Below, piece by piece: positions 72-51,762 of a stretch of 64,000 bases of DNA. The notes under the pieces were generated by a model. It ran no database searches and was not told where the DNA came from. It was given only the letters and a program-made list of their open reading frames with translations. The stretch is from Burkholderiales bacterium (GTDB lineage Bacteria; Pseudomonadota; Gammaproteobacteria; Burkholderiales; JBILQJ01). A program made the position numbers and the translations under genes. Location: positions 7,188-71,187 of the forward strand of contig JBILQJ010000003.1 in NCBI GenBank assembly GCA_044373325.1. Direction: 5' to 3'. Numbering within the stretch: the stretch's first letter is position 1; each line of letters opens with the position of its first letter.

Positions 72-112
72 TTGTGGCCAACTTTTTCTTGTGTATAAAA
101 AAGTTGACCACA
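72..112. repeat. Degenerate inverted pair of the window-wide repeat (TTGTGGCCAACTTTTT ... AAAAAGTTGACCACAA), downstream of mdh
   Basis: Two complementary arms of about 16 nt separated by a short loop. Sequence variant (GGCCAACT) of the GGCCAACC family seen throughout 0-52 kb. Confidence 0.6.
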
Positions 113-134
113 AGGATTTAAAGACTGCTTGAAA

Positions 135-1136
135 TTAGCCTAACAAATGCGCAATGGCGGCGCGTTCTTCTTCTAATTCGGTCAAAGTAACTGTCATGCG
201 TTCGCGGCTGAATTCGTCAATTTCTAAGCCTTGTACGATGCTGTATTCGCCGTTGGCGCACGTCACAGGGAAACCGTACATCACGCCTTCGGGGATGCCG
301 TAAGATCCGTCTGAAGGAATGCCCATCGTCACCCATTCGCCTTGCGTGCCCAAAGCCCAGTCGCGCATATGGTCGATGGCCGCATTGGCCGCAGAAGCCG
401 CAGAAGACAAGCCACGCGCCTCAATAATAGCCGCGCCACGTTTGCCCACAGTCGGCAAAAATACGTCGCGATTCCATGCTTCATCGTTGATTAAGGTTTT
501 AGCCGCTTGGCCGTTTAAGGTGGCAAAACGATAATCGGCGTACATGGTGGGCGAATGGTTGCCCCAAACGGCCAATTGGCGAATGCTAGAAACTGGCAAG
601 CCCGTTTTGCTGGCCAATTGCGAAGCCGCGCGGTTGTGATCCAAACGCAACATGGCCGTGAAGTTTTTAGCGGGCAAATTTTTGGCCGATTTCATAGCGA
701 TGTAAGCGTTGGTATTGGCGGGATTGCCCACCACCAACACGCGCACGTTGCGGCTGGCAACGGCATCTAAGGCCTGCCCTTGAACGGTGAAAATTTTGGC
801 ATTTTCTTGTAATAATTCAGCACGTTCCATGCCAGGGCCGCGCGGACGAGCGCCGACCAACAAAGCGTAATCCACGTCTTTAAAAGCCACCAAAGGATCG
901 CAAGTGCCAACCATGCTGTGCAACAAAGGGAAGGCACAATCGTCCAATTCCATCATCACGCCACGCAAAGCCGACAAAGCTTTTTCGTTATCAATTTCAA
1001 GCAATTGCAAAATTACAGGTTGGTCTTTGCCTAGCATTTCTCCGCTGGCAATGCGAAACAACAAACTATAAGAAATTTGGCCTGCTGCGCCTGTCACGGC
1101 AACACGAACGGGGGCTTTTAAAGCTGAAGCTTGCAT
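135..1136 (-). CDS. mdh: Malate dehydrogenase (long, LDH-like class)
   Basis: 333-aa ORF. N-terminal Rossmann motif [24 protein letters not shown], and length and layout typical of this MDH class. Confidence 0.9.
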
Positions 1137-1251
1137 GAACTTCTCCTAACGAAAAAATCAAAGGGTTGATGAAAAATAACCACGAAAGTTTAGCATAAAA
1201 CCAGCGCTTTTGTGCAGCGCACTTAAAGCTTTTTTCTACATCAAGCAAAAA

Positions 1252-1307
1252 CCTTTGTGGCCAACCTTTTACCCGAATATTTCAGGGAAAAAGGTTGGCC
1301 GCAAGGG
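1252..1307. repeat. Inverted pair of the GGCCAACC repeat (TTGTGGCCAACCTTTT-loop-AAAAAGGTTGGCCGCAA)
   Basis: Arms are complementary over about 17 nt plus flanking CCTT/AAGG. The loop ACCCGAATATTTCAGGG resembles the loops of other copies. Lies between the ggt stop and the mdh start. Confidence 0.85.
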
Positions 1308-1372
1308 TTTTTGGGTATTATGGATGATAGGTTTCAATCAAAGGCCAAATTTTAGGGCATTTTTGAGCGCAT

Positions 1373-3242: not shown

Positions 3243-4478
3243 CTACAAAAAAGACACGCCATCAGCAAAAGGGCTTAAACCCCAACGATGAGCCAAACTT
3301 TGCCCCACATCGGCAAAGCCATGCCGCACGCCCAAACTGCCAACCGCAACACTCGCGCCCGCCACCAAAACTGGCACGTGTTCTCGCGTATGCTCGGTGC
3401 CTGGCCAAGTCGGGTCGCAACCGTGGTCCGCTGACAAAATCAACACATCATCGGGGCCTAAGGCGGCCAACATATCGGGCAGACGCGCATCAAACTCTTC
3501 TAAGGCCGCCGCATAGCCCGCCACGTTGCGTCTGTGCCCAAAGCTTTGATCAAATTCGACAAAATTGGTCATCACCAAACTGTTGTCGGGCAAAGTCGCC
3601 CATGCGGATAAGGTCGCGTCCCACAAAGCCTTATGCCCTGTGGCTTTATAAGCTTGTGTGATGCCGCTGCCTGCAAAAATATCCGAAATTTTACCAACAG
3701 AAACGACTTCGCCACCCGCTAGTGCGACTTTGTCTAACAGCGTTGGCGCTGGCGGTTGAACGGCGTAATCATGTCGATTGCCTGTGCGTTTGTAGTTGGC
3801 CGCATTGCTCCCGATAAAGGGGCGAGCAATCACTCGGCAAATTTGATATTTTTGCACTTCTTCATAAGCGATTTCGCACAAACGATATAAATTATCCAAG
3901 CCAAAACTGTCTTCGTGTACCGCAATTTGAAAAACAGAATCGGCTGACGTATAAAAAATGGGTTTGCCTGTGGCTTGATGTTCTTCACCTAACCGCGCGA
4001 TGATTTCTGTGCCTGACGCATGGCAATTGCCCAACCAACCAGGCAAGCCAGCGCGTTCAACCAAAATATCTAACAGCTCGGGCGGAAAGGAATCAGTTTT
4101 TTTGGGAAAATAGCCCCAATCGAAACGCACAGGCACGCCCATCAATTCCCAATGCCCCGATGGGGTGTCTTTACCCGAAGAGACTTCATACGCCGCGCCA
4201 TAAGCGGCCATGACCTCAGGCTGAGCACTCAAGCCCGCGACTGGCTGTCCCGTGGCCAATTGACTGGCCAAGCCCAAGCCCATTTTTTCAAGGTTGGGAA
4301 TGTGCAGCGCGCCCGAACGCGGCTGGTTTTCATTTTCATAATATCGACCATCGGCGCGCCCAGCCAAGCACTCGACCGCTATGCTGCCCAAAGTATTAGC
4401 GCCCACATCGCCAAAAGCCGCCGCATCAGGCGCTGCGCCTATGCCCAAAGAATCCAAAATTAAAATTGCAACTCGCAT
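3243..4478 (-). CDS. deoB: Phosphopentomutase
   Basis: 411 aa. N-terminal [14 protein letters not shown] metal-binding motif and SADHGCDPT motif of the alkaline-phosphatase-superfamily phosphopentomutases. Adjacent to deoC. Confidence 0.9.
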
Positions 4479-5331: not shown

Positions 5332-5379
5332 TTGCGGCCAACCTTTTTTTAGTTTTTTGCATAAAAAGGTTGGCCGCAA
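5332..5379. repeat. Inverted pair of the GGCCAACC repeat between nupC and deoC
   Basis: TTGCGGCCAACCTTTTT ... AAAAAGGTTGGCCGCAA, with perfect 17-nt arms. Confidence 0.9.
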
Positions 5380-6766: not shown

Positions 6767-7831
6767 TTAGCACACCTTGCGCACTCGGTTTTCAGTCGCG
6801 CTTGAGGTGGCCAACTCCATCAAAGCCATCACTTTAATGGCGCTGTCTGCGGTAACAGGATTGGCCGCGCCGTGCAAAAGGTTGGCTGCAATCCCTGCAT
6901 AATACGCACCATAATCACCAAACTGTACAGCGAAGGTTTGCGTCAAAACCGTTTCGGGCGCATTAGCATTTTCCAAGCTCAATTCACTGATTTCTGTCTC
7001 TGGCTCTGTTGCCGTGCTCACGCCCCACAAGCCATTTTTGAGTTGATTTTCTTGCAAATCCAAGCCCCATTTGACCCAGCTGCCTTGTTTGCCATGCACC
7101 GTAAATCTGGGCGCTGGGGCTGCGGCCAAGGTGCTGGCGTGCAAAATAACTCGCGCCGTTTTGTAATATAAAATGACCTCAAAATAATCAACGGCCACGC
7201 CATCGGTTCTTAAAATCGCCAAATCGGCAAAAATGGCCTGCGGCATACCCAATAATTCGATGGCCTGATCCAATAAATGCGGGCCCAAATCATACCAAAG
7301 CCCTGCGCCTGCCTGAGCTTGTTCGCGCCAACGGGGTCTAACTTGTGGCCTAAATCGGTCAAAATGTGAACGTATCGACACAATATCGCCCAAAGTTTGC
7401 TCGCGTACCAGTGTTTGCAAAGTTAAAAAATCCCCGTCCCAGCGCCGATTGTGAAACACGGACAACGTCAAGTTGGCCGCAATGGCTTGTTGATTCAAGC
7501 CTTCAGCTTCTGCCAAGGTCAACGTAAACGGCTTGTCGACTACCACGTGTTTGCCTGCGGCCAAAGCCGCTTGCGCCAAAGCATAATGCGTGTCGTTGGG
7601 CGTTGCAATGACCACCAAATCTATGCTGTCGTCTAACCACAAAGCCTCAACATCCGCCAAAATCCGCACCGAGGCAGGCCATTTTTTCTGATCCGCCAAA
7701 ATTTTTTCGCCCTGACGGCTGATGATGACACTCAATTCTAAATTTTTACAAGCCAAAATCAATGGTGCATGAAACGTTTGGCCTGCGTAACCGTAACCAA
7801 TCAAGGCCACTTGTATGACTTGGGCATTCAT
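6767..7831 (-). CDS. Gfo/Idh/MocA-family NAD(P)-dependent oxidoreductase
   Basis: 354 aa. N-terminal VALIGYGYAG Rossmann motif followed by the VATPNDTH and VVDKPF motifs typical of the family. Confidence 0.8.
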   Translation of the reverse strand: MNAQVIQVALIGYGYAGQTFHAPLILACKNLELSVIISRQGEKILADQKKWPASVRILADVEALWLDDSIDLVVIATPNDTHYALAQAALAAGKHVVVDKPFTLTLAEAEGLNQQAIAANLTLSVFHNRRWDGDFLTLQTLVREQTLGDIVSIRSHFDRFRPQVRPRWREQAQAGAGLWYDLGPHLLDQAIELLGMPQAIFADLAILRTDGVAVDYFEVILYYKTARVILHASTLAAAPAPRFTVHGKQGSWVKWGLDLQENQLKNGLWGVSTATEPETEISELSLENANAPETVLTQTFAVQFGDYGAYYAGIAANLLHGAANPVTADSAIKVMALMELATSSATENRVRKVC

Positions 7832-7852: not shown

Positions 7853-7870
7853 AAAAAAGGTTGGCCACAA
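7853..7870 (-). repeat. Single copy of the repeat (AAAAAAAGGTTGGCCACAA on the + strand)
   Basis: Lies between the pgpA stop and the oxidoreductase start. The pgpA transcript would read TTGTGGCCAACCTTTTTTT. Confidence 0.85.
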
Positions 7871-8465: not shown

Positions 8466-9455
8466 TTAAGGGGCTTTAAAATGGTCAAAACCGCGTTCCG
8501 CCATAAAAAAAGGTTGGCCGCAATGCCGCAATTGCAAGCCTTGCTCGGCGGTGATGTGGCCAACCTTGCTTAAGCGGATATTGAGCGCTAGCGCCAAGTC
8601 CGCCAAGGCCGCGCGTTGCTGGGCTGGCGCGGTAAAACACAATTCGTAATCATCGCCGCCTGCGGCCACGTAGCGATAATAATCTTTAAAATCCGCGCCT
8701 AACACGCTGTTTTCGGCCACAGGCAAAGCGTCTAAATTGACCACCGCGCCGCAAGCCGAAGCTTGCAAAATATGCCCTAAATCCGCCAACAGCCCATCTG
8801 AAATGTCCAGCGCCGCATGGGCAATGCCTTGCAAAGCCATGCCCAAAGCGACCCGGGGCGTGGGTTGATGCAATTTAGCCAAACACAAAGCCTGCGCTGG
8901 CGCGTCCAAAGCCCAAGGCAAAGTCTGCGTCAAATGCGCCAAAGCCATCGCGGCCAACCCCAGCTCTCCGCTCACCCAAATGTCGTCGCCCACTTGGGCT
9001 TGATCGCGGCGCAGCGCTTGGCCTTGCGGCGCATCACCCAGCACCGTCACCGACACCGTCAACGGCCCAGCCGTGGTATCGCCGCCAATTAACATCACGC
9101 CATGTTCTGCGGCCAAGGTTTGAAAGCCCGCCAAAAAATCAGCCAGCCAAACGGGATTCAATTCAGGCAAAGCCACCGACAACAGAACCCAGCGCGGCTT
9201 TGCACCCATGGCGGCCATGTCCGACAAATTCACCGCCAAGGCTTTATGACCTAAATTTTGCGGCGCAACGTCGGCAAAAAAATGCCGCCCTGCCACCAAC
9301 ATATCACTGGAAAGATGTATATCGCGCCCCGCCGTTGGCCGAATAATCGCCGCATCGTCGCCTATGCCCAAAATCAATTGCGGCGAAGTTTGCGCTTTAG
9401 GGAGCATTTGTTGAATGAATTCAAATTCGCCCATGTTTTTTGGCGCTTGCGTCAT
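8466..9455 (-). CDS. thiL: Thiamine-monophosphate kinase
   Basis: 329 aa. GIGDDAAI and PurM-like ATP-binding fold motifs. Contains an in-frame copy of the repeat near its 3' end (encoding HCGQPFF). Confidence 0.85.
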   Translation of the reverse strand: MTQAPKNMGEFEFIQQMLPKAQTSPQLILGIGDDAAIIRPTAGRDIHLSSDMLVAGRHFFADVAPQNLGHKALAVNLSDMAAMGAKPRWVLLSVALPELNPVWLADFLAGFQTLAAEHGVMLIGGDTTAGPLTVSVTVLGDAPQGQALRRDQAQVGDDIWVSGELGLAAMALAHLTQTLPWALDAPAQALCLAKLHQPTPRVALGMALQGIAHAALDISDGLLADLGHILQASACGAVVNLDALPVAENSVLGADFKDYYRYVAAGGDDYELCFTAPAQQRAALADLALALNIRLSKVGHITAEQGLQLRHCGQPFFMAERGFDHFKAP

Positions 9456-10931: not shown

Positions 10932-10946
10932 AAAAGGTTGGCCGCA
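10932..10946 (-). repeat. Single copy of the repeat (AAAAGGTTGGCCGCA on the + strand)
   Basis: Lies between the R-M gene stop and the sbcB start. Confidence 0.8.
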
Positions 10947-10982
10947 GGCATTGATGCTTAGGCCGCAAATATTGACGGCTTA

Positions 10983-11154: not shown

Positions 11155-13578
11155 TTACGCTTTCAAAAATTCGTATTCGTAAACTTTGGGTTGCAGCTTT
11201 GCGGCCAACCTTGACAACGCCAAGCGCAACTCGGCGATGTGTGCGCTGTAAATCGCGTCGCTGCTTTTGGGGTTCATGCGGCCTTTATCGTTACGGCCTT
11301 GAAAATGTTCGCGTATGTCGTACAAACTCGCGTTCACATTCACATCTTGCTGCGCGTGATAATACGTCCAGAGCGCACGGCCAGCATCAAATACGGCGGT
11401 GGCTTCCGCGCTAAACACCAAGGCCATGGTGCGTGGTGTGGCGAGGTCGTGCAAATCTTGCGCCGCGTCATCGGCTGGCAGTTTGCCTTTGATAAAATCG
11501 GTCATAAAATGGCTGGCAAATTTGGCCTGCGCGTTCACTTCTTGTTCGGTGAATGGTATCCAGTGGTTGATGCCAAAAGAAGTAGAAATATTATTGCTAA
11601 ACAAAGTCCAAGCCAAACAGTCATTTTGAAATTCAAAATCGGTTTGCCAGCCTTCATTTGGGAATAAAAATTGGTCACGGTCATTTAACCAATCTGCGCT
11701 AATAATATGACGTAAGGCATAATAAATCGAAGATTCTTTTAAATTTGTTTTTGTTACTTGCCAATTATGATTTGAAGCAGGAACTTTCATAAAAGGTTTA
11801 CCAAAACGAACTAATCGTTGATTTTGGAAATCACTTCCAACTCCTATGATTGTTGCAATAGATTCCGCATTAGATTTTCTAAAAGTTTTTACCCAATCAT
11901 TTATGAATTTAACATTGTCATAAGCCCAAATATTTTTGTATCCAAAAAAATTTCCTTTTTTATCATATACATCAGATTTTATAAATGTAAATTTTTCTTT
12001 GAATTTAGTATCCCAAATATAAAAAGCTATTGGAAATTGGCCAGTTACATTATCAAATGTTTCTGCTGGCGTTAAAAATATTTTCTCCAATTTGGCATGA
12101 AAAAAATTACGCAAATCTAGATATCTAGGTGCTTGCAAGTTTTTTAATTTTGAAAAATTTGCAATGATGGATTGTGGAATTTCACAATAAATTCTAGTTA
12201 GGAATTGTACGTACATTTCACGCTTGGTATAACCCATTAAATCTGAATACTTTTTGTGTATTTCAGAAATCGCAACACCAGTTCTACCTTCTCCCTGTCT
12301 ATTATCAGCCTCCGCATACGGCGGATTGATATAAATCACCAGTTTTTTGCGTTTTTCGGGGTCGTTGATGATGTCTTGCAGGCTTTGCGGCAACTTCGTG
12401 AAATCATCATTCAAAAAGTCAAATTGAAACACGTGATTTTTGAGCAAATGCGCCCCGTCTTCTATGCGTTGGTGCATCACGTTCACATCGGCTTGGTCTA
12501 AGGTGCTGGCATAAATGTTGTATTTATTGGTCAAGCCCGCCAACAAATTGCCCGTGCCTGCCGCGCAATCCCAAATGGTGTAATCGTCTTGCCAGCTTGC
12601 ACCCAAATAATTGGTCAAATATTTTTGGGACAATTCCACCCAAATTCGTGGCGTAAAAAAAGCGCCTTTGCGTTCGCGTATGTCTTGCGGCACCAACAAA
12701 TCGCGGCGCTCGATGATGTAATCTTGAAATTCTTTCAGCGGTGGACGCTTGTAAACGCGCCAAAATTGTTGATACGTTTCTTTTTCTTTAATCGAAATCG
12801 TGGCATCAAACATGGCTTTCATGTTTTCTTTGGCAATTTTGTAGCCCGAATTTTGAAAAATCACAAACAAATTGTCGCGAATAGAAACATCGTCCGCCAT
12901 GTTTTTGGTGTCGTAATCCTCCACAAACAAATCAGCCAAATAAAAATCGCTGTCCACAATGTTGGCTTTTTTAAGGTCGTCCCAATTCACATCAATAATC
13001 GGTTTGACCACGTCCAACCAACGCAAATAAATCGGCAAAAAATTGTTTTTATCGATTTTAATTTTGCTGCTGCTCGTGGCGTTGGCGATGTTGTTTTTTA
13101 TAAAAAATTGCAGCGCTTTGGCATCAACTTCATAATCAAACACAAACGCTTTTTGTTTTAACAAACTTTCGATGCGAGCTTTGATGAGCTGAAATTCTTT
13201 GGTGTCGTGATTGCTGGGCGTGACATTCCAATTAAAATCATTCATGAAAAAAATGTCTTGGATGTTGATGTACTCAACAAACGCGATTTTTTTAAAATCA
13301 AACGCGCCCAAAAACGGCGGCGGCAACGTTTTGTCAAACGTGCGCGCCTTGCCTATCGTCAAAATCAACTGCACAAACATCGCCGCAAGGTCAAAATCGC
13401 CCGTTTTGGCCTCCGCCCACAACAAAGGCGCGCGCTCAAACAGCGTCTCTTGCTTAGAAAAAACCGTAAAATCAATGTTGCCCAAAATTTCAGTCGTATC
13501 AAACGCCGAAAACCAATCCGCCGCCACTTTGTTTTTAAGTTCTTCTTCGCGCATACTTTTGTATTTCATGGTCATCAC
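11155..13578 (-). CDS. Solitary Type IIG-like restriction-modification enzyme (N-terminal PD-(D/E)xK-like domain plus gamma-class N6-adenine methyltransferase plus target-recognition region)
   Basis: 807 aa. Motif I WDCAAGTGNLL (aa 336-346) and motif IV NPPY (aa 418-421; nt 12316-12327). N-terminal ...NID...(18 aa)...LWAEAKTG resembles a D...ExK nuclease motif. There is no separate REase or specificity gene nearby. The first codon listed is GTG, with ATG codons at 13575 and 13569. Confidence 0.65.
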   Translation of the reverse strand: MMTMKYKSMREEELKNKVAADWFSAFDTTEILGNIDFTVFSKQETLFERAPLLWAEAKTGDFDLAAMFVQLILTIGKARTFDKTLPPPFLGAFDFKKIAFVEYINIQDIFFMNDFNWNVTPSNHDTKEFQLIKARIESLLKQKAFVFDYEVDAKALQFFIKNNIANATSSSKIKIDKNNFLPIYLRWLDVVKPIIDVNWDDLKKANIVDSDFYLADLFVEDYDTKNMADDVSIRDNLFVIFQNSGYKIAKENMKAMFDATISIKEKETYQQFWRVYKRPPLKEFQDYIIERRDLLVPQDIRERKGAFFTPRIWVELSQKYLTNYLGASWQDDYTIWDCAAGTGNLLAGLTNKYNIYASTLDQADVNVMHQRIEDGAHLLKNHVFQFDFLNDDFTKLPQSLQDIINDPEKRKKLVIYINPPYAEADNRQGEGRTGVAISEIHKKYSDLMGYTKREMYVQFLTRIYCEIPQSIIANFSKLKNLQAPRYLDLRNFFHAKLEKIFLTPAETFDNVTGQFPIAFYIWDTKFKEKFTFIKSDVYDKKGNFFGYKNIWAYDNVKFINDWVKTFRKSNAESIATIIGVGSDFQNQRLVRFGKPFMKVPASNHNWQVTKTNLKESSIYYALRHIISADWLNDRDQFLFPNEGWQTDFEFQNDCLAWTLFSNNISTSFGINHWIPFTEQEVNAQAKFASHFMTDFIKGKLPADDAAQDLHDLATPRTMALVFSAEATAVFDAGRALWTYYHAQQDVNVNASLYDIREHFQGRNDKGRMNPKSSDAIYSAHIAELRLALSRLAAKLQPKVYEYEFLKA

Positions 13579-13611: not shown

Positions 13612-13655
13612 AAAAGGTTGGCCGCAACGGTTTTTTGCTTGCGGCCAACCTTTTT
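13612..13655. terminator. Repeat pair in terminator configuration (AAAAGGTTGGCCGCAA-loop-TTGCGGCCAACCTTTTT)
   Basis: This is the only pair with the A-run 5' and the T-run 3' of a 12-bp GC-rich stem, which is the geometry of a bidirectional intrinsic terminator. Lies between the holA stop and the R-M gene start. Confidence 0.65.
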
Positions 13656-16235: not shown

Positions 16236-16252
16236 TTGCGGCCAACCTTTTT
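16236..16252 (+). repeat. Single copy of the repeat (TTGCGGCCAACCTTTTT) just after the xthA stop
   Basis: Exact consensus. The upstream AAGGTGG can pair with CCAACCTT to give a short hairpin followed by a T-run. Confidence 0.85.
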
Positions 16253-19443: not shown

Positions 19444-19489
19444 TACTCATAATAAAATTAACCCTCTCTACAATAAAAAGGAATGTTGT

Positions 19490-22464: not shown

Positions 22465-22519
22465 AATCTTGCGGCCAACCTTTTTCCTGATTTCGGAAAA
22501 AAAGGTTGGCCGCAAGATT
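22465..22519. repeat. Inverted pair of the GGCCAACC repeat after ispD
   Basis: AATCTTGCGGCCAACCTTTTT-CCTGATTTCGG-AAAAAAAGGTTGGCCGCAAGATT. Confidence 0.9.
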
Positions 22520-22813: not shown

Positions 22814-22870
22814 TTGCGGCCAACCTTTTCCCTGCTATGTCGTCAAAAACACGAAAAAGGTTGGCCACAA
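22814..22870. repeat. Inverted pair of the repeat just downstream of apbC
   Basis: TTGCGGCCAACCTTTT, a 24-nt loop, then AAAAAGGTTGGCCACAA. Confidence 0.85.
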
Positions 22871-28722: not shown

Positions 28723-28777
28723 CCTTTGCGGCCAACCTTTTGCCTGACTATTTCAGAGAAAAGGTTGGCCGCAAAGG
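28723..28777. repeat. Inverted pair of the repeat after aceF
   Basis: CCTTTGCGGCCAACCTTTT-GCCTGACTATTTCAGAG-AAAAGGTTGGCCGCAAAGG. Confidence 0.9.
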
Positions 28778-28821
28778 TTGATGTCTCCCAAAAATAACAG
28801 GTACTCGTTACATAAAAAATC

Positions 28822-28869
28822 AGTGGCCAACTTCTTAACCCTCTATTTAGGATAAAAAGTTGGCCACTT
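28822..28869. repeat. Degenerate inverted pair (AGTGGCCAACTT ... AAGTTGGCCACT) downstream of pagP
   Basis: 12-nt complementary arms of the same GGCCAACT variant seen at 72-112. Confidence 0.65.
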
Positions 28870-35311: not shown

Positions 35312-35362
35312 ATGCGGCCAACCTTTTCCCTAGTTTTTTGGGGGTTAAAAGGTTGGCCGCAT
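35312..35362. repeat. Inverted pair of the repeat after rpoS
   Basis: ATGCGGCCAACCTTTT-CCCTAGTTTTTTGGGGGTT-AAAAGGTTGGCCGCAT. Confidence 0.9.
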
Positions 35363-37711: not shown

Positions 37712-37758
37712 TTGCGGCCAACCTTTTTCTGTTTTTTAACAAAAAAGGTTGGCCGCAA
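37712..37758. repeat. Inverted pair of the repeat between convergent ubiA and the efflux adaptor gene
   Basis: TTGCGGCCAACCTTTTT-CTGTTTTTTAAC-AAAAAAGGTTGGCCGCAA. Confidence 0.9.
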
Positions 37759-38991: not shown

Positions 38992-39613
38992 CTAAAATGT
39001 CCTGTTCCATTTTTTGTAAATCTGCCCGTTCATCTGGCGTAATAAAGTTGTCGCGACCTGCGGCCAACCTTGCACGTTGTAAATCAGCTAAATCCTCTTT
39101 CAGTTTCACGTGATTTTTGGCACTTTTTCGAGTGTATTCCTCTTTCAAGTCCAACTCATCTTGACGAAGTTCAGCTTGATCACCGGGTGAAAAAAGCCCG
39201 CTGGCCACCATTTCACGTCTTTTTTGGCGAATTTTTTCCTCATCTTCAGTCAATTGTTTTTGTTGTTTTTTAGACAAATACGGATATGGATTGTGTTTAC
39301 CGCTGGGTTCACGCCGTAAAAAATGCTCAAACTCTTCAGGCACACCGTTTCTAGCCACTTGTTTATCCTCGTTTTCAAGCAAGATTTTGAGCTGGGTTTG
39401 CACCGTATTCAAATCGGCTTTACGCGTGGCATAAACCGCTTTCACGTAGTTTTCTAAGCTGGGTTTGAGCTGGGTTAATTCGCCATCAGTCAACTCGCCC
39501 GACAGCATGCCCGCCCGCAATGATTTAGTAGTGGGCGTTGGCAAATAAGCCAGCGCGTGCACCAAGCTGGTACTGCCTAACAATAATAAAATTGCTGATA
39601 ATTTTTTCATCAT
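38960..39613 (-). CDS. Secreted coiled-coil protein with LTXXQ-like repeats (CpxP/Spy-like?)
   Basis: 217 aa with a signal peptide ([20 protein letters not shown]). Repeated motifs [30 protein letters not shown] and [10 protein letters not shown]. The start overlaps the prfA stop (ATGA). Confidence 0.55.
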
Positions 39614-40698
39614 GCCCCCGATAAATGTGTCAATAATTCGGCTTGGTGTTCAGCCACTAATGCGCTCGTTAATTCAAAAATATCGCCGTCCATGATGCTG
39701 TCCAACTTATATAAAGTCAGGTTGATGCGGTGGTCGGTCAAGCGCCCTTGCGGATAATTATACGTGCGTATGCGTTCGCTTCTGTCACCCGAACCCACCA
39801 AATTTTTTCTTTGCGTGGCCTCGGCTTGTTGTTGGCGTTGACGTTCGGCATCGTTGATGCGTGCGGCCAACACTGCCAGCGCTTTGGCTTTGTTTTTATG
39901 TTGAGAACGGTCATCTTGGCATTCTGCCACGATACCCGTAGGCAAATGCGTCACCCGCACAGCAGAATCGGTTTTATTAATGTGCTGGCCACCTGCACCA
40001 CTGGCGCGGTAGGTATCAATTCTTAATTCGGCAGGATTGAGCACCACGTCTGATAACTCATGGGCTTCGGGCAAAATGGCCACCGTACAAGCCGATGTGT
40101 GGATACGCCCTTGCGTTTCGGTGGCTGGCACGCGTTGAACGCGATGCGCGCCTGATTCAAATTTTAATTTAGAATAAACATTATCACCAATTAAGCGCAC
40201 GATGACTTCGCGGTAACCGCCCAAATCGGACATGGATTCTGACACGATTTCAACTTGCCAACGATTGCGTTCGGCAAAACGCGTGTACATTCGCAACAAA
40301 TCGGCCGCAAACAAAGCCGCCTCATCGCCGCCCGTGCCCGCACGAATTTCTAAAAAGACATTTTTGTCATCATCGACATCTTTTGGCAGCAACAAGGTTT
40401 GTAATTGCGTCACCAACTCATTTTGTCGGGCTTGCGTTGCTTCTATTTCAAGCGCAGCAAAGGCTTTTAAATCGGCATCGGCCAACATCTCGGTCGCCGC
40501 GCGCAAATCGGCGGCGCATTGTTGATAGTCACGAAAGCTTGCCACAACGGGCATTAATTCAACGTATTCTTTGTTGAGTTTTGTGTACAAAGCCAAATTG
40601 GCCGTTGCTTCCTCGGCGTTGAGCAAATGGCTGACTTCCTCTAAACGATCGGCCAATTGTTCCAACTTCATTAAAATAGAGGGTTTCATAATCTTCAA
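39610..40698 (-). CDS. prfA: Peptide chain release factor 1
   Basis: 362 aa. PAT tripeptide (RVPATE) and GGQ motif ([16 protein letters not shown]). Confidence 0.9.
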
Positions 40699-40716: not shown

Positions 40717-40766
40717 ATGCGGCCAACCTTAAAACACACAAAAGGTTGGCCGCAAAAGGTTGGACG
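40717..40766. repeat. Inverted pair of the repeat plus a partial third copy, between prfB and prfA
   Basis: ATGCGGCCAACCTT-AAAACACAC-AAAAGGTTGGCCGCAA followed by AAAGGTTGGACG. Confidence 0.85.
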
Positions 40767-40791: not shown

Positions 40792-41899
40792 TTACACGCC
40801 TTGTTTTAAACTGGCCGCAATAAAGCCATCTAAATCCCCGTCCATCACGCCTTTGATGTTGCCGACTTCGTAAGAGGTGCGCAAGTCTTTAATCCTTGAT
40901 TGATCAAAAACATACGAACGGATTTGATGCCCCCAACCCACATCTGACTTGCTGTCTTCCAGTGCTTGCTTGGATTCGTTGCGTTTTTTCAATTCCAGTT
41001 CATACAATTTTGCTCGCAACATTTTCATGGCTTCTGCCCGATTTTTATGTTGCGATCTGTCATTTTGACATTGCACCACCACGCCCGTTGGGTTGTGTGT
41101 AATGCGAACCGCCGAATCGGTTTTATTAATGTGCTGCCCCCCTGCCCCTTGCGCACGATAAGTATCGGTGCGCAAATCGGCAGGATTGATGTCGATTTCA
41201 AAACTGTCATCGACTTCTGGCGAAATAAAAACCGATGAAAATGACGTATGGCGGCGGTTATTGGAATCGAAAGGTGAACAACGAACCAAGCGATGCACGC
41301 CCGTTTCTGTACGCAACAAACCATACGCATAATCGCCTGAAATTTTTAAAGTGGCGCTGTTAATGCCCGCAATATCGCCAAACGATTCTTCTAAAATTTC
41401 TACCGTAAAGCCTTTGCGTTCGGCATAGCGGACGTACATCCGATACAACATGCCTGCCCAATCTTCGGCTTCTGTGCCGCCTGCGCCCGCTTGAATTTCT
41501 AAAAAGCAATTGTTCGGATCCATGGGGTCGTTAAACATACGTCTGAACTCTAAATCAGCCAACTGCGTTTCTATCAAGCTCAAGTCGTCTTGGACTGCGG
41601 CCAACGTGTCCGCGTCATTTTCTTCTCGGCCCATCTCAAACAAGTCTGCGCCGTCAGTCAACATGGCATTCAATTTGTCTAAGACCAACACCACATCTTC
41701 TAAACTTTTTTTCTCTTTGGCCAAACTTTGCGCGTTTTCGGGGTTATCCCAAACCGAGGCATCTTCCAGCAAACGAGACACTTCTTCTAAGCGATCTTTT
41801 TTGCCAGCGTAGTCAAAGATACCCCCGAATGCCTGTCAAACGAACCTCTAAATCACTCATTTGAGCCAACATTTGATTTAATACTTCTGCTTCAAACAT
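40792..41899 (-). CDS. prfB: Peptide chain release factor 2, requiring a programmed +1 frameshift
   Basis: Frame 0 runs 41899-41816 ([28 protein letters not shown]) and ends at an in-frame TGA (41815-41813). The +1 frame resumes at GAC (41814-41812) and continues to 40792. SPF tripeptide (RCSPFD) and GGQ motif present. Confidence 0.9.
41812..41827 (-). promoter_or_regulatory. prfB +1 frameshift site with internal Shine-Dalgarno-like element
   Basis: The sense strand reads CGGGGGTATCTTTGAC, matching the canonical E. coli prfB recoding signal (GGGGG-TAT-CTT-TGA-C). Confidence 0.9.
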
Positions 41900-43218: not shown

Positions 43219-43235
43219 TTGCGGCCAACCTTTTT
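43219..43235 (+). repeat. Single copy of the repeat (TTGCGGCCAACCTTTTT) between lolB and nagZ
   Basis: Exact consensus. A degenerate partial copy (CTTGCGGTTGAATTTT) follows about 20 nt later. Confidence 0.85.
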
Positions 43236-44023: not shown

Positions 44024-44473
44024 TTGTCGATTACGTTCATGTCTAGACTGACTTTGCCTGCCATTGAGCAGCCTATTTTTTATGCCGACATCCCCGTGCG
44101 CACCACCGATATGAATTACGGGGCGCATTTAGCCAACGACAAAATCCTCACTTTAGCGCACGAAATTCGCGTGGCTTTTTTGACTCGGCATGGCTTTAGC
44201 GAAAAAAATGTCGCAGGATGCGGTATCATCATGACCGATGCCGCCATTGTTTACAAAAGCCAAGCCGTTGCAGGTGATGTGCTGTCAGTGACTTTGGCGC
44301 TCAATGATGTTAATCGTTACGGCTTTGATTTGCAGTACGAATTCAAGCAAGCCAACGGCCTTTTGGTTGCCCAAGTCAAAACGGGTATCGTATTTTTTGA
44401 TTACACCCAACAAAAAATCTCTTCTATTCCAGCTGGCGTATTAGACACTTTGCAGTGCGGCCAACCTTTTTAA
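44024..44473 (+). CDS. Hotdog-fold acyl-CoA thioesterase (4HBT/YbgC-like)
   Basis: 149 aa. The early TDMNYGAHLAN segment and length fit the 4HBT fold. The last five residues (CGQPF) and the stop come from a copy of the repeat. Confidence 0.65.
   Translation: MSITFMSRLTLPAIEQPIFYADIPVRTTDMNYGAHLANDKILTLAHEIRVAFLTRHGFSEKNVAGCGIIMTDAAIVYKSQAVAGDVLSVTLALNDVNRYGFDLQYEFKQANGLLVAQVKTGIVFFDYTQQKISSIPAGVLDTLQCGQPF
44455..44471 (+). repeat. Single copy of the repeat (GTGCGGCCAACCTTTTT) forming the 3' end of the thioesterase ORF
   Basis: Read directly. Supplies codons CGQPF plus the first T of the TAA stop. Confidence 0.85.
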
Positions 44474-45931: not shown

Positions 45932-45948
45932 TTGCGGCCAACCTTTTT
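45932..45948 (+). repeat. Single copy of the repeat (TTGCGGCCAACCTTTTT) after xerC
   Basis: Exact consensus, 28 nt after the stop. Confidence 0.85.
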
Positions 45949-47099: not shown

Positions 47100-47111
47100 A
47101 GTATCAACAAC

Positions 47112-48788: not shown

Positions 48789-49526
48789 TTGAGTTTCATA
48801 GCATCCGTGAACCAATTAACCCTCGATTTTATTACGCTACCGCCCTATCGCTTTGATTATTTTGTCACTGGCAAAAATCAAGCCGTTTTAACGGCCCTCA
48901 TGCATAGGCCACTCAATCAAACCGATCAGTTGAGTCTACTCGATGAACATGATCGCTTTATTTATTTATGGGGCGAAGCTTACGTCGGAAAAAGTCATTT
49001 ATTACAAGCTTGGTTGCACTATCAACGCACCCATGCACCACACGCAGTGTGCGTGTATTGGGATGCGACGCGCTACTACCAAAAAGAACAACTCGAACTG
49101 GCTTTAGCAGCTGATTTTGTGGCCATCGATCACATAGACAATCTCACAGAAGAGGCTCAAATTGCGGTTTTCGCACTCTATAATCATTTTAAAAATCAAG
49201 GGATTGGCGAGTTGTTAATGGCGGGACGTTTACCGCCTGCCCAACAAACGCATTTGCGTGATGATTTAAGAACGCGCATGAGTTGGGGTTTGGTTTGGCC
49301 TGTTTTAGGCTTATCTGACGAAGACAAACAAACGGCTTTGCAAATCCAAGCGCGAGCAAGAGGCTTAACAATTTCACCAGAAGTATTTGAATATATTATA
49401 AAAAATAGCGATCGAGATTTGCATCATTTATCCGCCATGCTGGCTTTACTAGATGAATATTCTTTAGAGCAAAAACGAGCGCTGACCCTGCCTTTTGTCA
49501 AATCCATTTTAAAGGACTTATCATGA
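48789..49526 (+). CDS. hda: DnaA regulatory inactivator Hda
   Basis: AAA+ Walker [15 protein letters not shown] and DnaA-domain-III-like layout, about 240 aa. The start is uncertain (TTG 48789 or GTG 48807). Confidence 0.8.
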
Positions 49527-50098
49527 ACGCCACTCCCCCTCAAATCCACCCCAGCGCCATTGTTGATGAAGGGGCAAGCCTAGGCGTAGGCTGTAAAATA
49601 TGGCATTGGACTCACATTTGTGCTGGTGCTGAAATTGGCAATCACTGTTCTTTTGGGCAAAATGTTTATGTTGGCAATGCCGTCAAGGTTGGCCACAACG
49701 TCAAAGTACAAAATAACGTGTCCATTTATGATGCGGTGACTTTAGAAGACGATGTTTTTTGTGGGCCTTCTATGGTTTTTACGAATGTCAACAATCCACG
49801 CAGCGCCATTTCACGAAAAAATGAATATCGTCCAACGCTGGTCAAAAAAGGTGCAACCATAGGTGCAAATGCGACGATTGTTTGTGGTAACACCATCGGT
49901 GAATACGCTTTTATTGGCGCGGGTGCGGTCATCACAAGTGATGTCCAACCTTATGCTATTATGGTTGGCACCCCCGCTTATCGTTTGGGTTGGATGTGTT
50001 CTTGCGGCGGTAAAATCAGCAACGAAATCGGCGAACAACCGTGTTTGTCGTGTGGCAAAGTTTATGACGTGGGCGGCAATCACTGCACGCCAGTCTAA
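49523..50098 (+). CDS. Left-handed beta-helix (hexapeptide-repeat) N-acetyltransferase, WbpD/WlbB-like, with a C-terminal Cys cluster
   Basis: 191 aa. Repeated [LIV]G-x4 hexapeptides ([44 protein letters not shown]...). The C-terminus has CSCGG...CLSCG. The start overlaps the hda stop (ATGA). Confidence 0.7.
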
Positions 50099-50184
50099 AA
50101 TCGTTTTATAACGCCCAAATGCCATCACGAAATTTTAGAGTGATGGCGCTTTTATTGACAAAAATATCTAAGAAAGTTTGACTC

Positions 50185-51690
50185 ATGACCCATCCAGATT
50201 TAACCGTACCACACACCGATGAAAACCACATTATGGCGGAACGTCGCCAAAAATTGGCGCAATTACGTAGCGAGGGCATCGCTTACCCCAATGATTTTCG
50301 ACGCACCCATTTTGCCGCCGATTTACAAGCGGACTATGGCCAAGTCGAACCCGAAAGCTTAAAAGCGCAAGCTATAGAAGTCGCCATTGTTGGCCGCATG
50401 ATGCTAAAACGCGTAATGGGAAAAGCCAGTTTTGCTACCTTGCAAGACAGCAGTGGCCGTTTGCAAGTGTATATTGCGGGGGGCGCCATCGGCGAAACGC
50501 TTTATAATGGGTTTAAACATTGGGATTTAGGCGATATTGTGGCGGCCACGGGTACTTTGTTTATCACCAAAACGGGCGAATTGTCTGTGCACGCCACGCA
50601 CCTGCGATTGCTGACGAAAAGTGTGCGTCCTTTGCCTGAAAAATTTCATGGCATCGCCGATCAAGAGGTCAAATATCGCCAGCGCTATCTTGATTTAACC
50701 ATGGATAGAACGTCAACCGAACGCTTTATCAAGCGCTCACAAATTGTGCAATCGGTGCGCGACACTTTGGTGGATTTAAAGTATTTAGAAGTTGAAACGC
50801 CCATGATGCACACCATACCGGGTGGCGCATCCGCTCAACCTTTTTTAACGCATCACAATGCGCTGGATATGCCCTTATATTTACGCATTTCGCCCGAGCT
50901 TTACCTCAAACGCTTAATGGTGGGCGGCTTAGAACGGGTGTTTGAAATCAACCGCAGTTTTCGTAATGAAGGCATGAGCACCAGACACAATCCAGAATTT
51001 ACCATGATGGAATGTTACGAAGCTTATGCCGATTACCACGACATGATGAATTTGACCGAACGCATCATGCAAGCCGCCGCACTCAAAGTCTGCGGCAGTT
51101 TGCAAATTGAATACCAAGGCAAAATGGTTGATTTAAGTCATTTTACGCGCATGACCATGAATCAAGCCGTACAAGCCTTTAACCCTGATTATACCGACGC
51201 GCAGCTGAATGATGCCGCTTGGTTAAATGAAGCCATCAAACGCCATGGCGAAAAACCGTTGGGGGCAGACGCGCCTGTGGGCAGTTTGCAATTGGCTTTG
51301 TTTGAAGCCGCCGCTGAAGCCCAAATTTGGCACCCAACTTTTATTGTTGATTACCCTATCGAAGTCTCGCCTTTGGCTCGCGCATCCGACACCAAAGCGG
51401 GCTTGACCGAACGGTTTGAATTATTTTGTACGGGTCGAGAATTGGCCAATGGCTATTCGGAACTCAACGATGCCGACGATCAAGCCCAGCGCTTTTTGTC
51501 GCAAGCCGCTCAAAAAGATGCAGGCGATGACGAAGCCATGTTTTACGATGCCGATTACATCAAAACCTTGGAATACGGCATGCCACCAACGGGCGGATTG
51601 GGCATCGGCATCGATCGTTTGGTGATGCTATTGACCGATGCGGCGTCAATACGCGATGTGATTTTATTCCCGCAAATGCGCGCAGAATAA
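50185..51690 (+). CDS. lysS: Lysyl-tRNA synthetase (class II)
   Basis: 501 aa. OB-fold N-terminal domain, class II motifs FRNEG (motif 2) and [14 protein letters not shown] (motif 3). Confidence 0.9.
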
Positions 51691-51712
51691 AGCAGCAAAA
51701 CCATGCAAAATG

Positions 51713-51762
51713 CTTGCGGCCAACCTTTTATCCAAAAACGGAGGAAAAAGGTTGGCCACAAG
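51713..51762. repeat. Last inverted pair of the repeat in the window (after lysS)
   Basis: CTTGCGGCCAACCTTTT-ATCCAAAAACGGAGG-AAAAAGGTTGGCCACAAG. Confidence 0.9.

What the first reader, a model, noticed from the sequence alone, without database searches (positions are those of the whole stretch)
72..51762. Hyper-abundant motif TTGCGGCCAACCTTTTT: candidate DNA uptake sequence or a new REP-like family
The same motif recurs in almost every intergenic gap of the first 52 kb.
- By eye I find about 35 exact copies of the 8-mer core GGCCAACC/GGTTGGCC. A uniform-composition estimate (2 x 52,000 / 4^8) predicts only 1-2.
- Most copies are embedded in the longer consensus TTGCGGCCAACCTTTT(T).
- Ten copies-pairs are head-to-head (for example 1252-1307, 5332-5379, 22465-22519, 28723-28777, 35312-35362, 37712-37758, 51713-51762). 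Two more pairs use a GGCCAACT variant.
- Several loops share a second palindrome, CCTGA..TTTCAGG.
- Six of the seven full-length single copies are oriented so that the preceding gene's transcript ends in UUGCGGCCAACCUUUUU.

The density (about 1 per 1.5 kb), the fixed core plus T-run, the inverted pairs at gene ends and the in-frame coding copies are the hallmarks of Neisseriaceae DUS and Pasteurellaceae USS. The sequence, however, matches neither the GCCGTCTGAA-type DUS nor the AAGTGCGGT/ACAAGCGGT USS. In most pairs the T-run lies inside the stem rather than 3' of it, so simple intrinsic termination does not explain them.
Basis: partly seen in the sequence, partly recalled or inferred. Interest (0 to 1): 0.75.

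Follow-up and report, generated by a model that had tools for sequence, protein, structure and literature searches.

The report
Candidate DNA uptake sequence, Vogesella relatives
A 10-16 base motif (core TGCGGCCAAC) saturates this freshwater bacterium's chromosome and those of Vogesella species in the way the DNA-uptake signals of Neisseria and Haemophilus do, which points to an undescribed third family of bacteria that may prefer to take up their own DNA.

Summary
GGCCAACC occurs 43 times against about 3 expected. The best-defined core, TGCGGCCAAC, occurs 38 times against about 0.4 expected, all within 1-51.8 kb.

The window comes from an unnamed low-GC (47%) member of the Chromobacteriaceae. 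The same core is hyper-abundant in at least 10 Vogesella species with 60-70% GC: 190 copies in 271 kb, 72% of them inside genes, on both strands equally. It is not enriched in Aquitalea, Chromobacterium or Aquaspirillum.

In the window, 45% of core copies are coding, well above what synonymous-codon shuffles give. Intergenic copies lie at gene 3' ends, mostly as inverted pairs. The arms of those pairs are 95% identical, but the loops and flanks are unrelated, so the pairs are not copies of one mobile REP/MITE unit.

The last 12 kb is a compositionally atypical lipid gene cluster whose relatives are in Burkholderiales. It has no copy, not even one with a single mismatch.

This profile fits a DUS/USS-type uptake sequence. 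The motif lacks the CTG core of Neisseriaceae DUS, I found no Vogesella ComP ortholog, and uptake itself is untested. No paper in the library I searched describes it.

The parts
1255..1304 (.). Head-to-head motif pair (TTGTGGCCAACCTTTT ... AAAAGGTTGGCCGCAA) between two minus-strand genes
   Evidence: RNA hairpin of -31.2/-28.3 kcal/mol, with a T5 run after the stem in both directions.
5332..5379 (.). Head-to-head motif pair between deoC-like and nucleoside transporter genes
   Evidence: Hairpin of -27.3/-26.4 kcal/mol.
13612..13654 (.). The only strict tail-to-tail pair (AAAAGGTTGGCCGCAA-loop-TTGCGGCCAACCTTTT); it has the geometry of a canonical bidirectional terminator
   Evidence: Hairpin of -27.3/-26.1 kcal/mol.
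22469..22515 (.). Head-to-head pair in the convergent gap after ispD
   Evidence: Hairpin of -29.0/-29.9 kcal/mol.
22814..22870 (.). Second head-to-head pair in the same convergent gap, with a 25-nt loop
   Evidence: Hairpin of -21.5/-33.8 kcal/mol.
28726..28774 (.). Head-to-head pair in the convergent gap after aceF
   Evidence: Hairpin of -32.5 kcal/mol on both strands.
35312..35362 (.). Head-to-head pair after the sigma-factor gene (arms begin ATGCGG)
   Evidence: Hairpin of -33.9/-29.5 kcal/mol.
37712..37758 (.). Head-to-head pair in the convergent gap after ubiA
   Evidence: Hairpin of -30.2/-29.9 kcal/mol, with T-rich tails in both directions.
40717..40755 (.). Head-to-head pair between prfB and prfA, with a 7-nt loop
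   Evidence: Hairpin of -23.6/-24.0 kcal/mol.
51714..51761 (.). Head-to-head pair after lysS; this is the last copy before the motif-free region
   Evidence: Hairpin of -24.4/-28.6 kcal/mol.
72..113 (.). Variant pair (TTGTGGCCAACTTTTT ... AAAAAAGTTGACCACAA) downstream of mdh
   Evidence: The terminator scan calls it terminator-like on the minus strand.
28821..28869 (.). Variant pair (GTGGCCAACT type) downstream of pagP
   Evidence: Hairpin of -22.0/-28.9 kcal/mol.
8508..8569 (.). Loose tail-to-tail pair inside the 3' end of the thiL-like gene
   Evidence: Hairpin of -36.7/-29.9 kcal/mol; both arms are coding.
7855..7870 (-). Single full-length copy downstream of pgpA, pointing the same way as the gene
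10932..10947 (-). Single full-length copy downstream of the 807-aa ORF, pointing the same way; no hairpin
16236..16251 (+). Single copy after the xthA-like gene; GGCCAA pairs with a downstream TTGGCC to form a small terminator-like hairpin
   Evidence: (16239-16257).
43219..43234 (+). Single copy between two minus-strand genes; the one copy that points against the genes; no hairpin
44455..44470 (+). Single copy that supplies the last codons (QCGQPF*) of a thioesterase gene
45932..45947 (+). Single copy downstream of the xerC/D-like recombinase gene; no hairpin
3795..3804 (-). Coding core copy TGCGGCCAAC
7472..7481 (-). Coding core copy
11200..11209 (+). Coding core copy, antisense to the gene; encodes LAA
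13900..13909 (+). Coding core copy in holA
14227..14236 (+). Coding core copy in holA; encodes LAA
19648..19657 (+). Coding core copy in zwf
27290..27299 (-). Coding core copy in aceF, within a poorly conserved inter-domain linker
30134..30143 (-). Coding core copy in carA
30991..31000 (+). Coding core copy in the 313-aa ORF
31882..31891 (-). Coding core copy in surE
37332..37341 (+). Coding core copy in ubiA
39059..39068 (+). Coding core copy in the 217-aa ORF
39862..39871 (+). Coding core copy in prfA
41596..41605 (+). Coding core copy in prfB
50389..50398 (-). Coding core copy in lysS
51785..64000 (-). Motif-free region: a DUF2846 gene plus an aryl-polyene-type lipid gene cluster. It holds no exact and no one-mismatch core copy.
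   Evidence: From the coding density upstream, 9.9 copies would be expected, so P(0) = 5e-5.

Best explanation
The motif is most likely a DNA uptake enhancing sequence of the DUS/USS type, belonging to a clade of freshwater Chromobacteriaceae: Vogesella and this unnamed low-GC relative. The core is TGCGGCCAAC. It extends to TTGCGGCCAACCTTTT(T) in this lineage and to TGCGGCCAAC(C/G)TT in Vogesella.

What is shown: the abundance, the conservation across genomes of 47-70% GC, the strand symmetry, the coding copies, the placement at gene 3' ends, and the absence from one atypical gene cluster.

What is inferred, by analogy with Neisseria and Haemophilus:
1. A surface DNA receptor of the type IV pilus/competence machinery binds double-stranded DNA that carries the motif.
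2. Fragments carrying the motif are taken up preferentially and recombine into the chromosome.
3. New motif copies that arise by point mutation are therefore over-transmitted (molecular drive).
4. They accumulate wherever they are tolerated: weakly constrained coding segments and the 3' ends of genes.
5. At gene ends, two copies in inverted orientation also make a stable hairpin. This hairpin probably serves as a terminator or as a stabiliser of the mRNA 3' end.
For: (1) Enrichment. TGCGGCCAAC occurs 38 times against 0.3-0.6 expected in 52 kb. GGCCAACC occurs 43 times against 3.2.

(2) Presence across a clade, independent of GC content. 32 of the 88 exact 16-mer hits in 185,579 species-level genomes come from about 10 Vogesella species, two pond MAGs labelled Neisseriaceae and Beta proteobacterium L13. 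Those blocks hold 137 copies of GCGGCCAACC against 2.2 expected. The 56 unrelated control blocks hold only the copy that brought them in. The aceE locus of Vogesella sp. LIG4, chosen without regard to the motif, has 20 core copies in 22.7 kb against 0.2 expected. Aquitalea, C. violaceum and A. serpens have 1, 0 and 0.

(3) Coding copies. 17 of 38 core copies in the window are coding. In Vogesella, 137 of 190 are. Coding copies exceed synonymous-codon shuffles: 18 against 5.0 +/- 1.9 for the 8-mer, and 10 against 1.55 for the 10-mer.

(4) Strand symmetry. The split is 22/16 in the window and 92/98 in Vogesella, although GC skew keeps the same sign over most of the window.

(5) Density. There are 0.7 copies per kb in both lineages, close to the roughly 0.8-0.9 per kb of N. 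meningitidis DUS and H. influenzae USS (their counts are quoted in PMC7811141).

(6) Placement. Intergenic copies occur in all 4 convergent gaps and in 0 of 4 divergent gaps (read). This matches the terminator association reported for DUS and USS (bioRxiv 10.1101/2025.10.24.684340).

(7) Pairs are not copies of one element. Arms are 95% identical. Loops are 49% identical, against 46% when shuffled. Outer flanks are 51% identical.

(8) Depletion in probably acquired DNA. The region 51.8-64 kb has 0 copies at up to one mismatch (P = 5e-5). Its tetranucleotide profile is atypical. The best named relatives of its exporter are Burkholderiales, with no Chromobacteriaceae among the best 120.

(9) Independent gains at weakly constrained sites. 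The aceF copies in the window and in Vogesella lie at non-homologous positions in variable linkers. A 98-99% identical metagenome contig differs at three motif sites by single substitutions.

(10) Architecture. The GCGG-containing GC-rich core followed by a T-tract resembles the USS layout, and GCGG is the element crucial for uptake in H. influenzae (PMC7811141).
Against: - There is no functional evidence. I found no report of natural transformation or uptake specificity in Vogesella.
- The motif lacks the CTG core and the +10 A shared by all Neisseriaceae DUS dialects (PMC3630211).
- No ComP-like protein from Vogesella appeared among the full-length hits I sampled.
- Earlier work found neither a DUS nor ComP in other Chromobacteriaceae (PMC3630211).
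- The taxonomic distribution is patchy. Aquitalea groups with Vogesella in a single-protein AceE tree, yet the sampled Aquitalea locus lacks the motif.
- For the window's own species I have only this window, one overlapping contig and 7 short metagenome contigs. Genome-wide abundance is therefore shown directly only for Vogesella.
Confidence: 0.6

Rival explanations
1. The motif is the recognition site of some other genome-wide DNA-binding or DNA-processing protein, unrelated to uptake. Examples would be a HIP1-like iterated motif linked to a methyltransferase or repair system, the target of a site-specific nuclease of the Ssn/NTS kind, or a recombination or nucleoid-organising site. It would be kept abundant by selection or by biased repair or gene conversion.
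For: This fits the same observations as the uptake model: abundance, clade-wide conservation, coding copies and strand symmetry. HIP1 in cyanobacteria shows that non-uptake motifs can reach this density (my own knowledge). Neisseria carries a second abundant repeat, NTS/dRS3, which the Ssn nuclease recognises (PMC11893778). The patchy phylogeny would suit a system that is gained and lost.
Against: The motif is asymmetric, not palindromic like HIP1. It has no resemblance to dRS3/NTS (ATTCCC-N8-GGGAAT, my own knowledge). No GIY-YIG or methyltransferase gene lies in the window. Depletion in a probably acquired cluster and placement in weakly constrained linkers are what molecular drive through uptake predicts. 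They are not required by a binding-site model, though neither do they exclude it.
Confidence: 0.25
2. The motif is a REP/REPIN-like or MITE-like mobile intergenic palindrome family, or simply a preferred terminator stem, and the coding copies are incidental.
For: 25 of the 43 8-mer copies lie in the 8.5% of the window that is intergenic. Most intergenic copies form inverted pairs with hairpins of -21 to -34 kcal/mol. They lie at gene 3' ends, and several are followed by T-rich tails.
Against: - 45% of core copies in the window and 72% in Vogesella are inside genes, above synonymous-shuffle expectation.
- The 16-nt unit is not itself a hairpin.
- 4-5 of 7 single intergenic copies form no hairpin.
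- Loops and outer flanks of the pairs are unrelated, so the pairs are not copies of a master element.
- 9 of 10 strict pairs place the T-run inside the stem. The terminator scan does not call them, while canonical terminators without the motif exist at 22745-22790 and 47113-47140.
- No Y1-transposase (RAYT) domain is found in the window.
- No Rfam family matches.
Confidence: 0.1
3. The motif is a polar chromosome-organising or recombination signal, such as Chi or FtsK-orienting KOPS.
For: It is a short, abundant motif present in both coding and non-coding DNA.
Against: Such signals are strongly skewed toward one replichore strand. Here the strands carry 22 and 16 copies in a window whose GC skew keeps the same sign almost throughout, and 92 and 98 copies across Vogesella blocks. 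Inverted pairs and perfect 20-nt palindromes are incompatible with a polar signal.
Confidence: 0.02

Closest known systems
DNA uptake sequence (DUS) of Neisseriaceae (canonical GCCGTCTGAA and its dialects; receptor is the minor pilin ComP)
   Same: - A 10-12 nt asymmetric motif at about 0.7-0.9 copies per kb on both strands.
- Present in genes and between them.
- Inverted pairs at gene 3' ends.
- Lineage-specific 'dialect' extensions.
- Depleted in probably acquired DNA.
- The host belongs to the same order, Neisseriales.
- Positions 1-6 (GCGGCC) are identical to the Vitreoscilla massiliensis dialect AGCGGCCTGTAA (bioRxiv 10.1101/2025.10.24.684340).
   Different: - The CTG core at positions 6-8 and the A at +10 are conserved in all known dialects and required for transformation (PMC3630211). 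Here these positions read CAA and C/G.
- The host family is Chromobacteriaceae, where earlier work found neither a DUS nor ComP.
- I found no Vogesella ComP ortholog.
- The function is untested.
Uptake signal sequence (USS) of Pasteurellaceae (AAGTGCGGT and ACAAGCGGT types with AT-rich 3' tracts)
   Same: - It shares TGCGG/GCGG, the element crucial for uptake in H. influenzae (PMC7811141).
- The GC-rich core is followed by a T-tract in the low-GC lineage.
- Most copies are inside genes in Vogesella (72%), as with USS.
- Head-to-head pairs occur at gene ends.
   Different: - The 9-mer core is different.
- The host is a betaproteobacterium.
- The T-tract is absent in the high-GC Vogesella copies.
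- In USS pairs the A-rich 5' end of the motif supplies a T-run after the stem. Here the 5' end is TT, so the complement ends in AA.
REP/REPIN elements with RAYT transposases
   Same: Short repeats abundant between genes, often as inverted doublets that form hairpins.
   Different: REPs are extragenic, are individually imperfect palindromes, and spread as units. This motif is largely coding in Vogesella, is not self-complementary, and its pairs have unrelated loops and flanks.
HIP1 (GCGATCGC) of cyanobacteria
   Same: A hyper-abundant short motif in coding and non-coding DNA, conserved across genera.
   Different: HIP1 is a perfect palindrome linked to methyltransferases. This motif is asymmetric and clusters as inverted pairs at gene ends.

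Membership tests
Neisseriaceae DUS | A 10-12 nt motif present in roughly a thousand or more copies per genome (about 1 per kb), on both strands | tested here: met
   0.73 copies per kb in window 1-52 kb and 0.70 per kb in 271 kb of Vogesella-clade DNA. Strand splits are 22/16 and 92/98.
Neisseriaceae DUS | A conserved CTG core at positions +6 to +8 and A at +10 (PMC3630211) | tested here: not met
   When aligned on GCGGCC, the motif reads G C G G C C A A C C/G. Positions 6-8 are therefore CAA and +10 is C or G.
Neisseriaceae DUS | A ComP minor pilin receptor (Pfam PF16732) encoded in the genome | tested here: inconclusive
   I checked the ComP sequence against PDB 2M3K/5HZ7. A phmmer search of 1.84 billion representatives gave 66 hits at E <= 1e-10. 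No Vogesella genome could be searched directly.
Neisseriaceae DUS | Inverted-repeat copies at gene 3' ends or terminators | tested here: met
   There are 10 strict pairs, present in all 4 convergent gaps and in none of the 4 divergent gaps. Hairpins range from -21 to -34 kcal/mol.
Neisseriaceae DUS | Under-representation in horizontally acquired DNA | tested here: met
   One case only. The region 51.8-64 kb has 0 copies against 9.9 expected. It is compositionally atypical and its homologues are in Burkholderiales.
Neisseriaceae DUS | The motif enhances DNA uptake and transformation | not testable with these tools
   This needs wet-lab uptake or transformation assays.
Pasteurellaceae USS | A core of AAGTGCGGT or ACAAGCGGT | tested here: not met
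   Only TGCGG/GCGG is shared (direct comparison with the logo).
Pasteurellaceae USS | AT-rich tracts 3' of the core | tested here: inconclusive
   In intergenic copies of the window, all four positions of the TTTT run that follows the core are 95-100% T. Beyond TT this tract is not conserved in Vogesella.
REP/REPIN | Confined to extragenic space | tested here: not met
   17 of 38 core copies in the window and 137 of 190 in Vogesella lie in coding sequence.
REP/REPIN | Each unit is an imperfect palindrome, and doublets are copies of a replicating unit | tested here: not met
   Within the unit only GGCC is self-complementary. Loops are 49% identical against 46% when shuffled, and outer flanks 51%.
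REP/REPIN | An associated RAYT (Y1 transposase) gene flanked by the repeats | not testable with these tools
   None is found among the window's genes.
Intrinsic terminators | A GC-rich stem with a short loop, immediately followed by a U-tract | tested here: inconclusive
   The consensus scan calls only 113..72 and 16239-16257. Some pairs have 5-6 T in the next 10 nt and others only 2-3. Most single copies form no hairpin.
Chi / KOPS polar motifs | A strong strand skew relative to the direction of replication | tested here: not met
   The strand split is 22/16 in a window whose GC skew keeps the same sign almost throughout, and palindromic pairs are common.

The most novel reading that the evidence does not exclude
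Vogesella and its low-GC freshwater relatives have a third, independently evolved uptake-sequence system. It would use the motif TGCGGCCAAC and a receptor other than the known ComP, giving self-DNA-selective natural transformation in free-living environmental bacteria. A rarer variant of this reading is that the motif is a deeply diverged homologue of the Neisseriaceae DUS, since it shares the GCGGCC half with the Vitreoscilla massiliensis dialect. That would move the origin of DUS-based transformation back before the split between Neisseriaceae and Chromobacteriaceae.
Probability: 0.45. Interest if true: 0.85.

Novelty: new variant of a known kind. Interest (0 to 1): 0.75.

Why it matters
Sequence-selective DNA uptake is known in only two bacterial families, Neisseriaceae and Pasteurellaceae. 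Both are host-associated, and most of what is thought about why uptake sequences exist rests on those two cases.

A third case would give the field an independent replicate. It has an unrelated motif, lives in free-living freshwater bacteria, and spans genomes from about 47% to 70% GC. It would allow tests of three things:
- the molecular-drive model of how uptake sequences accumulate;
- how uptake receptors and their motifs co-evolve;
- the recurrent recruitment of uptake sequences as terminator hairpins.

There are practical uses too. The motif would mark native versus acquired DNA in these genomes, as it appears to do for the lipid gene cluster here. It would also suggest a simple way to make Vogesella genetically tractable.

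Tried and rejected
- **Exact-protein look-up.** The look-up of the window's AceE found nothing. I placed the organism through homologues instead.
- **Literature.** Searches for the motif string, for Vogesella with uptake sequence or competence, and for Neisseriales relatives returned nothing relevant. One search call failed on a formatting limit.
- **Genome scan.** It therefore gives presence but no counts per genome, and the window's own species did not appear in it.
- **Metagenome scan.** The scan for pairs returned only 7 short contigs. That is too little to measure genome-wide density in the window's own species.
- **ComP route.** The word-indexed search reached only close Neisseria ComPs. 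The exhaustive search followed by cluster look-up found no Vogesella member, but this cannot exclude one.
- **Rfam.** No RNA family overlaps the motif.
- **Terminator scan.** The simple scan does not explain the pairs.
- **Second palindrome.** I rejected the idea that the loops carry a conserved second palindrome.
- **Other readings considered and rejected.** A Chi/KOPS reading fails because there is no strand skew. An Ssn/NTS reading fails because there is no sequence resemblance and no GIY-YIG gene in the window.
- **AceE tree.** The single-protein tree did not resolve whether the window lineage is sister to Vogesella.

Full report
**1.

GGCCAACC occurs 43 times on the two strands, against 3.2 +/- 1.7 (maximum 7) in dinucleotide-preserving shuffles. 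The 16-mer TTGCGGCCAACCTTTT with up to two mismatches occurs 32 times against 0.21 expected. A de novo k-mer count shows that the most repeated 10-mer in the window is TGCGGCCAAC, with 38 copies. Markov models of order 1 to 3 predict 0.33-0.56 copies. Ten further copies are the single variant TGTGGCCAAC.

Every copy lies between 72 and 51,761. After the motif is masked, no other k-mer stands out.

**2. Where the window comes from**

The genes are ordinary chromosomal housekeeping genes: mdh, ggt, deoC, thiL, sbcB, holA, lptE, an AcrB-type pump, zwf, ispD, aceEF, carA, surE-pcm-nlpD and a sigma factor, ubiA, prfA/prfB, lolB, xerC/D, holB, pilZ, hda and lysS.

AceE is 76-77% identical to its counterparts in Vogesella and Aquitalea, and 74-75% identical to those of Chromobacterium and other Chromobacteriaceae. 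A freshwater metagenome contig is 99% identical at the protein level. That contig is 98-99% identical in DNA to window 18,997-27,759. The source is therefore an unnamed member of the Chromobacteriaceae (order Neisseriales) with an unusually low GC content of 47%.

**3. The motif is shared by a clade**

Of these, 32 come from about ten Vogesella species, two pond MAGs labelled Neisseriaceae, and Beta proteobacterium L13.
- These 8-kb blocks total 248 kb at 53-71% GC. They carry 161 copies of GGCCAACC (15.9 expected) and 137 of GCGGCCAACC (2.2 expected).
- The 56 blocks from unrelated organisms carry only the copy that brought them in.

A locus chosen by aceE rather than by the motif, from Vogesella sp. 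LIG4, has 20 copies of TGCGGCCAAC in 22.7 kb (0.15-0.22 expected). The matching loci of Aquitalea, C. violaceum and Aquaspirillum serpens have 1, 0 and 0.

Across 271 kb of Vogesella-clade DNA there are 190 core copies, or 0.70 per kb. Of these, 72% lie inside ORFs, and the strands carry 92 and 98.

The flanks differ by lineage. Here the motif reads TTGCGGCCAACCTTTT(T). In Vogesella it reads (T)TGCGGCCAAC followed by CTT or GTT, and it includes perfect 20-nt palindromes, TGCGGCCAACGTTGGCCGCA.

**4. Anatomy in the window**

*Location of copies.* Of the 38 core copies, 21 are intergenic and 17 coding, with 22 on the plus strand and 16 on the minus strand. GC skew keeps the same sign almost throughout the window, so there is no polarity relative to replication.

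*Coding copies.* Coding copies exceed what the proteins and codon usage would give. The 8-mer occurs 18 times against 5.0 +/- 1.9 (maximum 11 in 500 shuffles). The 10-mer occurs 10 times against 1.55 +/- 1.2. Recurrent translations are LAA on the antisense reading and CGQP on the sense reading.

*Intergenic copies.* They lie at gene 3' ends. All four convergent gaps hold pairs, none of the four divergent gaps holds a copy, and about half of the co-directional gaps do (read).

*Pairs.* Ten strict pairs form hairpins of -21 to -34 kcal/mol. Nine are head-to-head, with the T-runs inside the stem. One, at 13612-13654, is tail-to-tail. The arms are 95% identical. The loops are 49% identical, against 46% when shuffled, and the outer flanks 51%. 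The pairs are therefore not copies of one mobile unit.

*Single copies.* Six of seven single full-length copies point the same way as the upstream gene, and four or five of them form no hairpin.

*Terminators.* The consensus terminator scan calls almost none of the pairs. It does find canonical terminators without the motif at 22745-22790 and 47113-47140. No Rfam family matches the motif.

**5. The motif-free tail**

From 51,785 to 64,000 there is no exact copy and no one-mismatch copy. The first 52 kb has 38 exact and 30 one-mismatch copies. Taking coding DNA alone, 9.9 copies would be expected, so P(0) = 5e-5.

This stretch is one minus-strand operon of the aryl-polyene/flexirubin lipid type. 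It encodes an MMPL exporter, a LolA-like protein, acyltransferases, a GT2 glycosyltransferase, an AMP-ligase fused to an ApeI-type dehydratase, an ACP, ketosynthases and a phosphopantetheinyl transferase.
- Its tetranucleotide profile correlates 0.85-0.89 with the rest of the window. Other 4-kb blocks give 0.94-0.97, apart from one at 0.894 (24-28 kb).
- Its GC3 is higher than in the rest of the window.
- The best named homologues of its exporter are Burkholderiales: Formosimonas at 48%, and Cupriavidus and Duganella at about 35%. No Chromobacteriaceae appears among the best 120.

It is probably acquired DNA.

**6. Turnover**

The 98-99% identical contig differs from the window at three motif sites by single substitutions. 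These make or break a perfect match.

In aceF, the window's copy and the Vogesella palindrome lie at non-homologous positions in the variable inter-domain linkers of a protein that is 66% identical overall. Copies therefore arise independently, where constraint is weak.

**7. Interpretation**

Together, these properties are the published signature of DUS and USS (PMC3630211, PMC7811141, bioRxiv 10.1101/2025.10.24.684340):
- density of about 0.7 per kb;
- strand symmetry;
- copies in both coding and non-coding DNA;
- inverted pairs at gene ends;
- lineage dialects;
- depletion in acquired DNA;
- independent point-mutational gains.

I know of no other class of motif that shows the whole set. I therefore rate a DUS/USS-type uptake sequence, maintained by biased uptake plus recombination, as the most likely explanation (0.6).

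The mechanism is inferred, not shown. I found no record of transformation in Vogesella. The window offers only a PilZ gene next to holB as a hint that type IV pili exist.

**8. Comparison with known families**

*Neisseriaceae DUS.* When aligned on GCGGCC, the motif matches positions 1-6 of the Vitreoscilla massiliensis dialect AGCGGCCTGTAA. However, it reads CAA where every dialect has the essential CTG, and C/G where they have A at +10. It fails that defining feature, so I do not file it as a DUS dialect.

*ComP.* Frye et al. found no DUS in Chromobacterium, Laribacter, Lutiella or Pseudogulbenkiania, and apparently no ComP in C. violaceum. I first checked my ComP sequence against PDB 2M3K/5HZ7, then searched 1.84 billion representative proteins with it. 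Every named hit among the ten full-length hits I sampled came from Neisseriaceae in the strict sense. This is inconclusive for Vogesella.

*Pasteurellaceae USS.* The motif shares only TGCGG/GCGG and the core-plus-T-tract layout.

*REP/REPIN.* Membership fails on extragenic restriction, on unit palindromy and on unit replication.

*Chi/KOPS.* Membership fails on polarity.

**9. Rival explanations**

A different genome-wide protein-binding motif remains possible (0.25). It could be HIP1-like, a nuclease target, or involved in repair. The abundance, conservation and symmetry would look the same under that model. A REP-like or terminator-only family is unlikely (0.1).

Two points remain unexplained.
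- The taxonomic distribution is patchy: Aquitalea lacks the motif although it groups with Vogesella in a single-protein AceE tree.
- Head-to-head pairs are strongly preferred over the tail-to-tail arrangement, which would place the T-run 3' of the stem.

**10. Novelty**

No paper in the library I searched mentions the motif, or any uptake sequence in Vogesella or its relatives. The most recent survey still limits such sequences to Neisseriaceae and Pasteurellaceae.

If the motif is functional, this is a third family with an uptake sequence. It would have an unrelated motif and probably a different receptor, and it would be found in free-living freshwater bacteria.

Noticed in passing
window 41899-40792 (minus strand), frameshift site at about 41826-41812: prfB (release factor 2) carries the canonical programmed +1 frameshift site, GGGGG TAT CTT TGA C. 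This is why the mechanical ORF list starts the gene late. The RF1 gene (prfA-like) follows directly at 40698-39610, separated from prfB by a motif pair.
   Followed up: partly
window 52392-64000 (minus strand): An aryl-polyene/flexirubin-type lipid biosynthesis operon. It encodes an MMPL exporter, a LolA-like protein, lipid-A-type and PlsC-type acyltransferases, a GT2 glycosyltransferase, an AMP-ligase fused to an ApeI dehydratase, an ACP, ketosynthases and a PPTase. Its composition is atypical and its closest named relatives are Burkholderiales, so it was probably acquired horizontally.
   Followed up: partly
window 11155-13578 (minus) and 30802-31743 (minus): An 807-aa ORF and a 313-aa ORF match no Pfam family at E <= 0.001. 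The 807-aa ORF gives only a weak Ras/Roc-like hit at E = 0.003. Both carry coding copies of the motif.
   Followed up: no
window 47024-47140: tRNA-Asn (GTT) at 47024-47099 is followed by a perfect bidirectional terminator at 47113-47140 (AAAAACGACAGCC-TACG-GCTGTCGTTTTT) that lacks the motif. The organism therefore also uses ordinary terminators.
   Followed up: partly
L097 (freshwater metagenome contig Ga0114976_10125388), 1-1451: Five motif pairs lie within 1.45 kb (GC 40%). They frame repeated cassettes of about 670 nt that share a leader (GCCCCTACATTTTTGGCTAT...). Here each pair is followed by a T6-7 run. This looks like an array of variable gene cassettes separated by motif-pair terminators.
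   Followed up: no
L091 (Vogesella sp. LIG4) 13115-13134 and 16313-16332: Perfect 20-nt palindromes, TGCGGCCAACGTTGGCCGCA, made of two overlapping inverted core copies. One lies inside the aceF coding sequence. There are five such palindromes in 271 kb of Vogesella-clade DNA.
   Followed up: partly
window 48247-48618 (plus): A PilZ-domain gene lies immediately downstream of holB. In Pseudomonas (my own knowledge), this arrangement marks the PilZ protein needed for type IV pilus assembly. It is the only hint of pilus machinery in the window.
   Followed up: no
window 22118-22158 versus L089 position 3121/3122: The 98-99% identical metagenome contig lacks 41 nt that the window has inside ispD, which splits that gene into two ORFs there. 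This is either an assembly artefact or a strain-level disruption.
   Followed up: no
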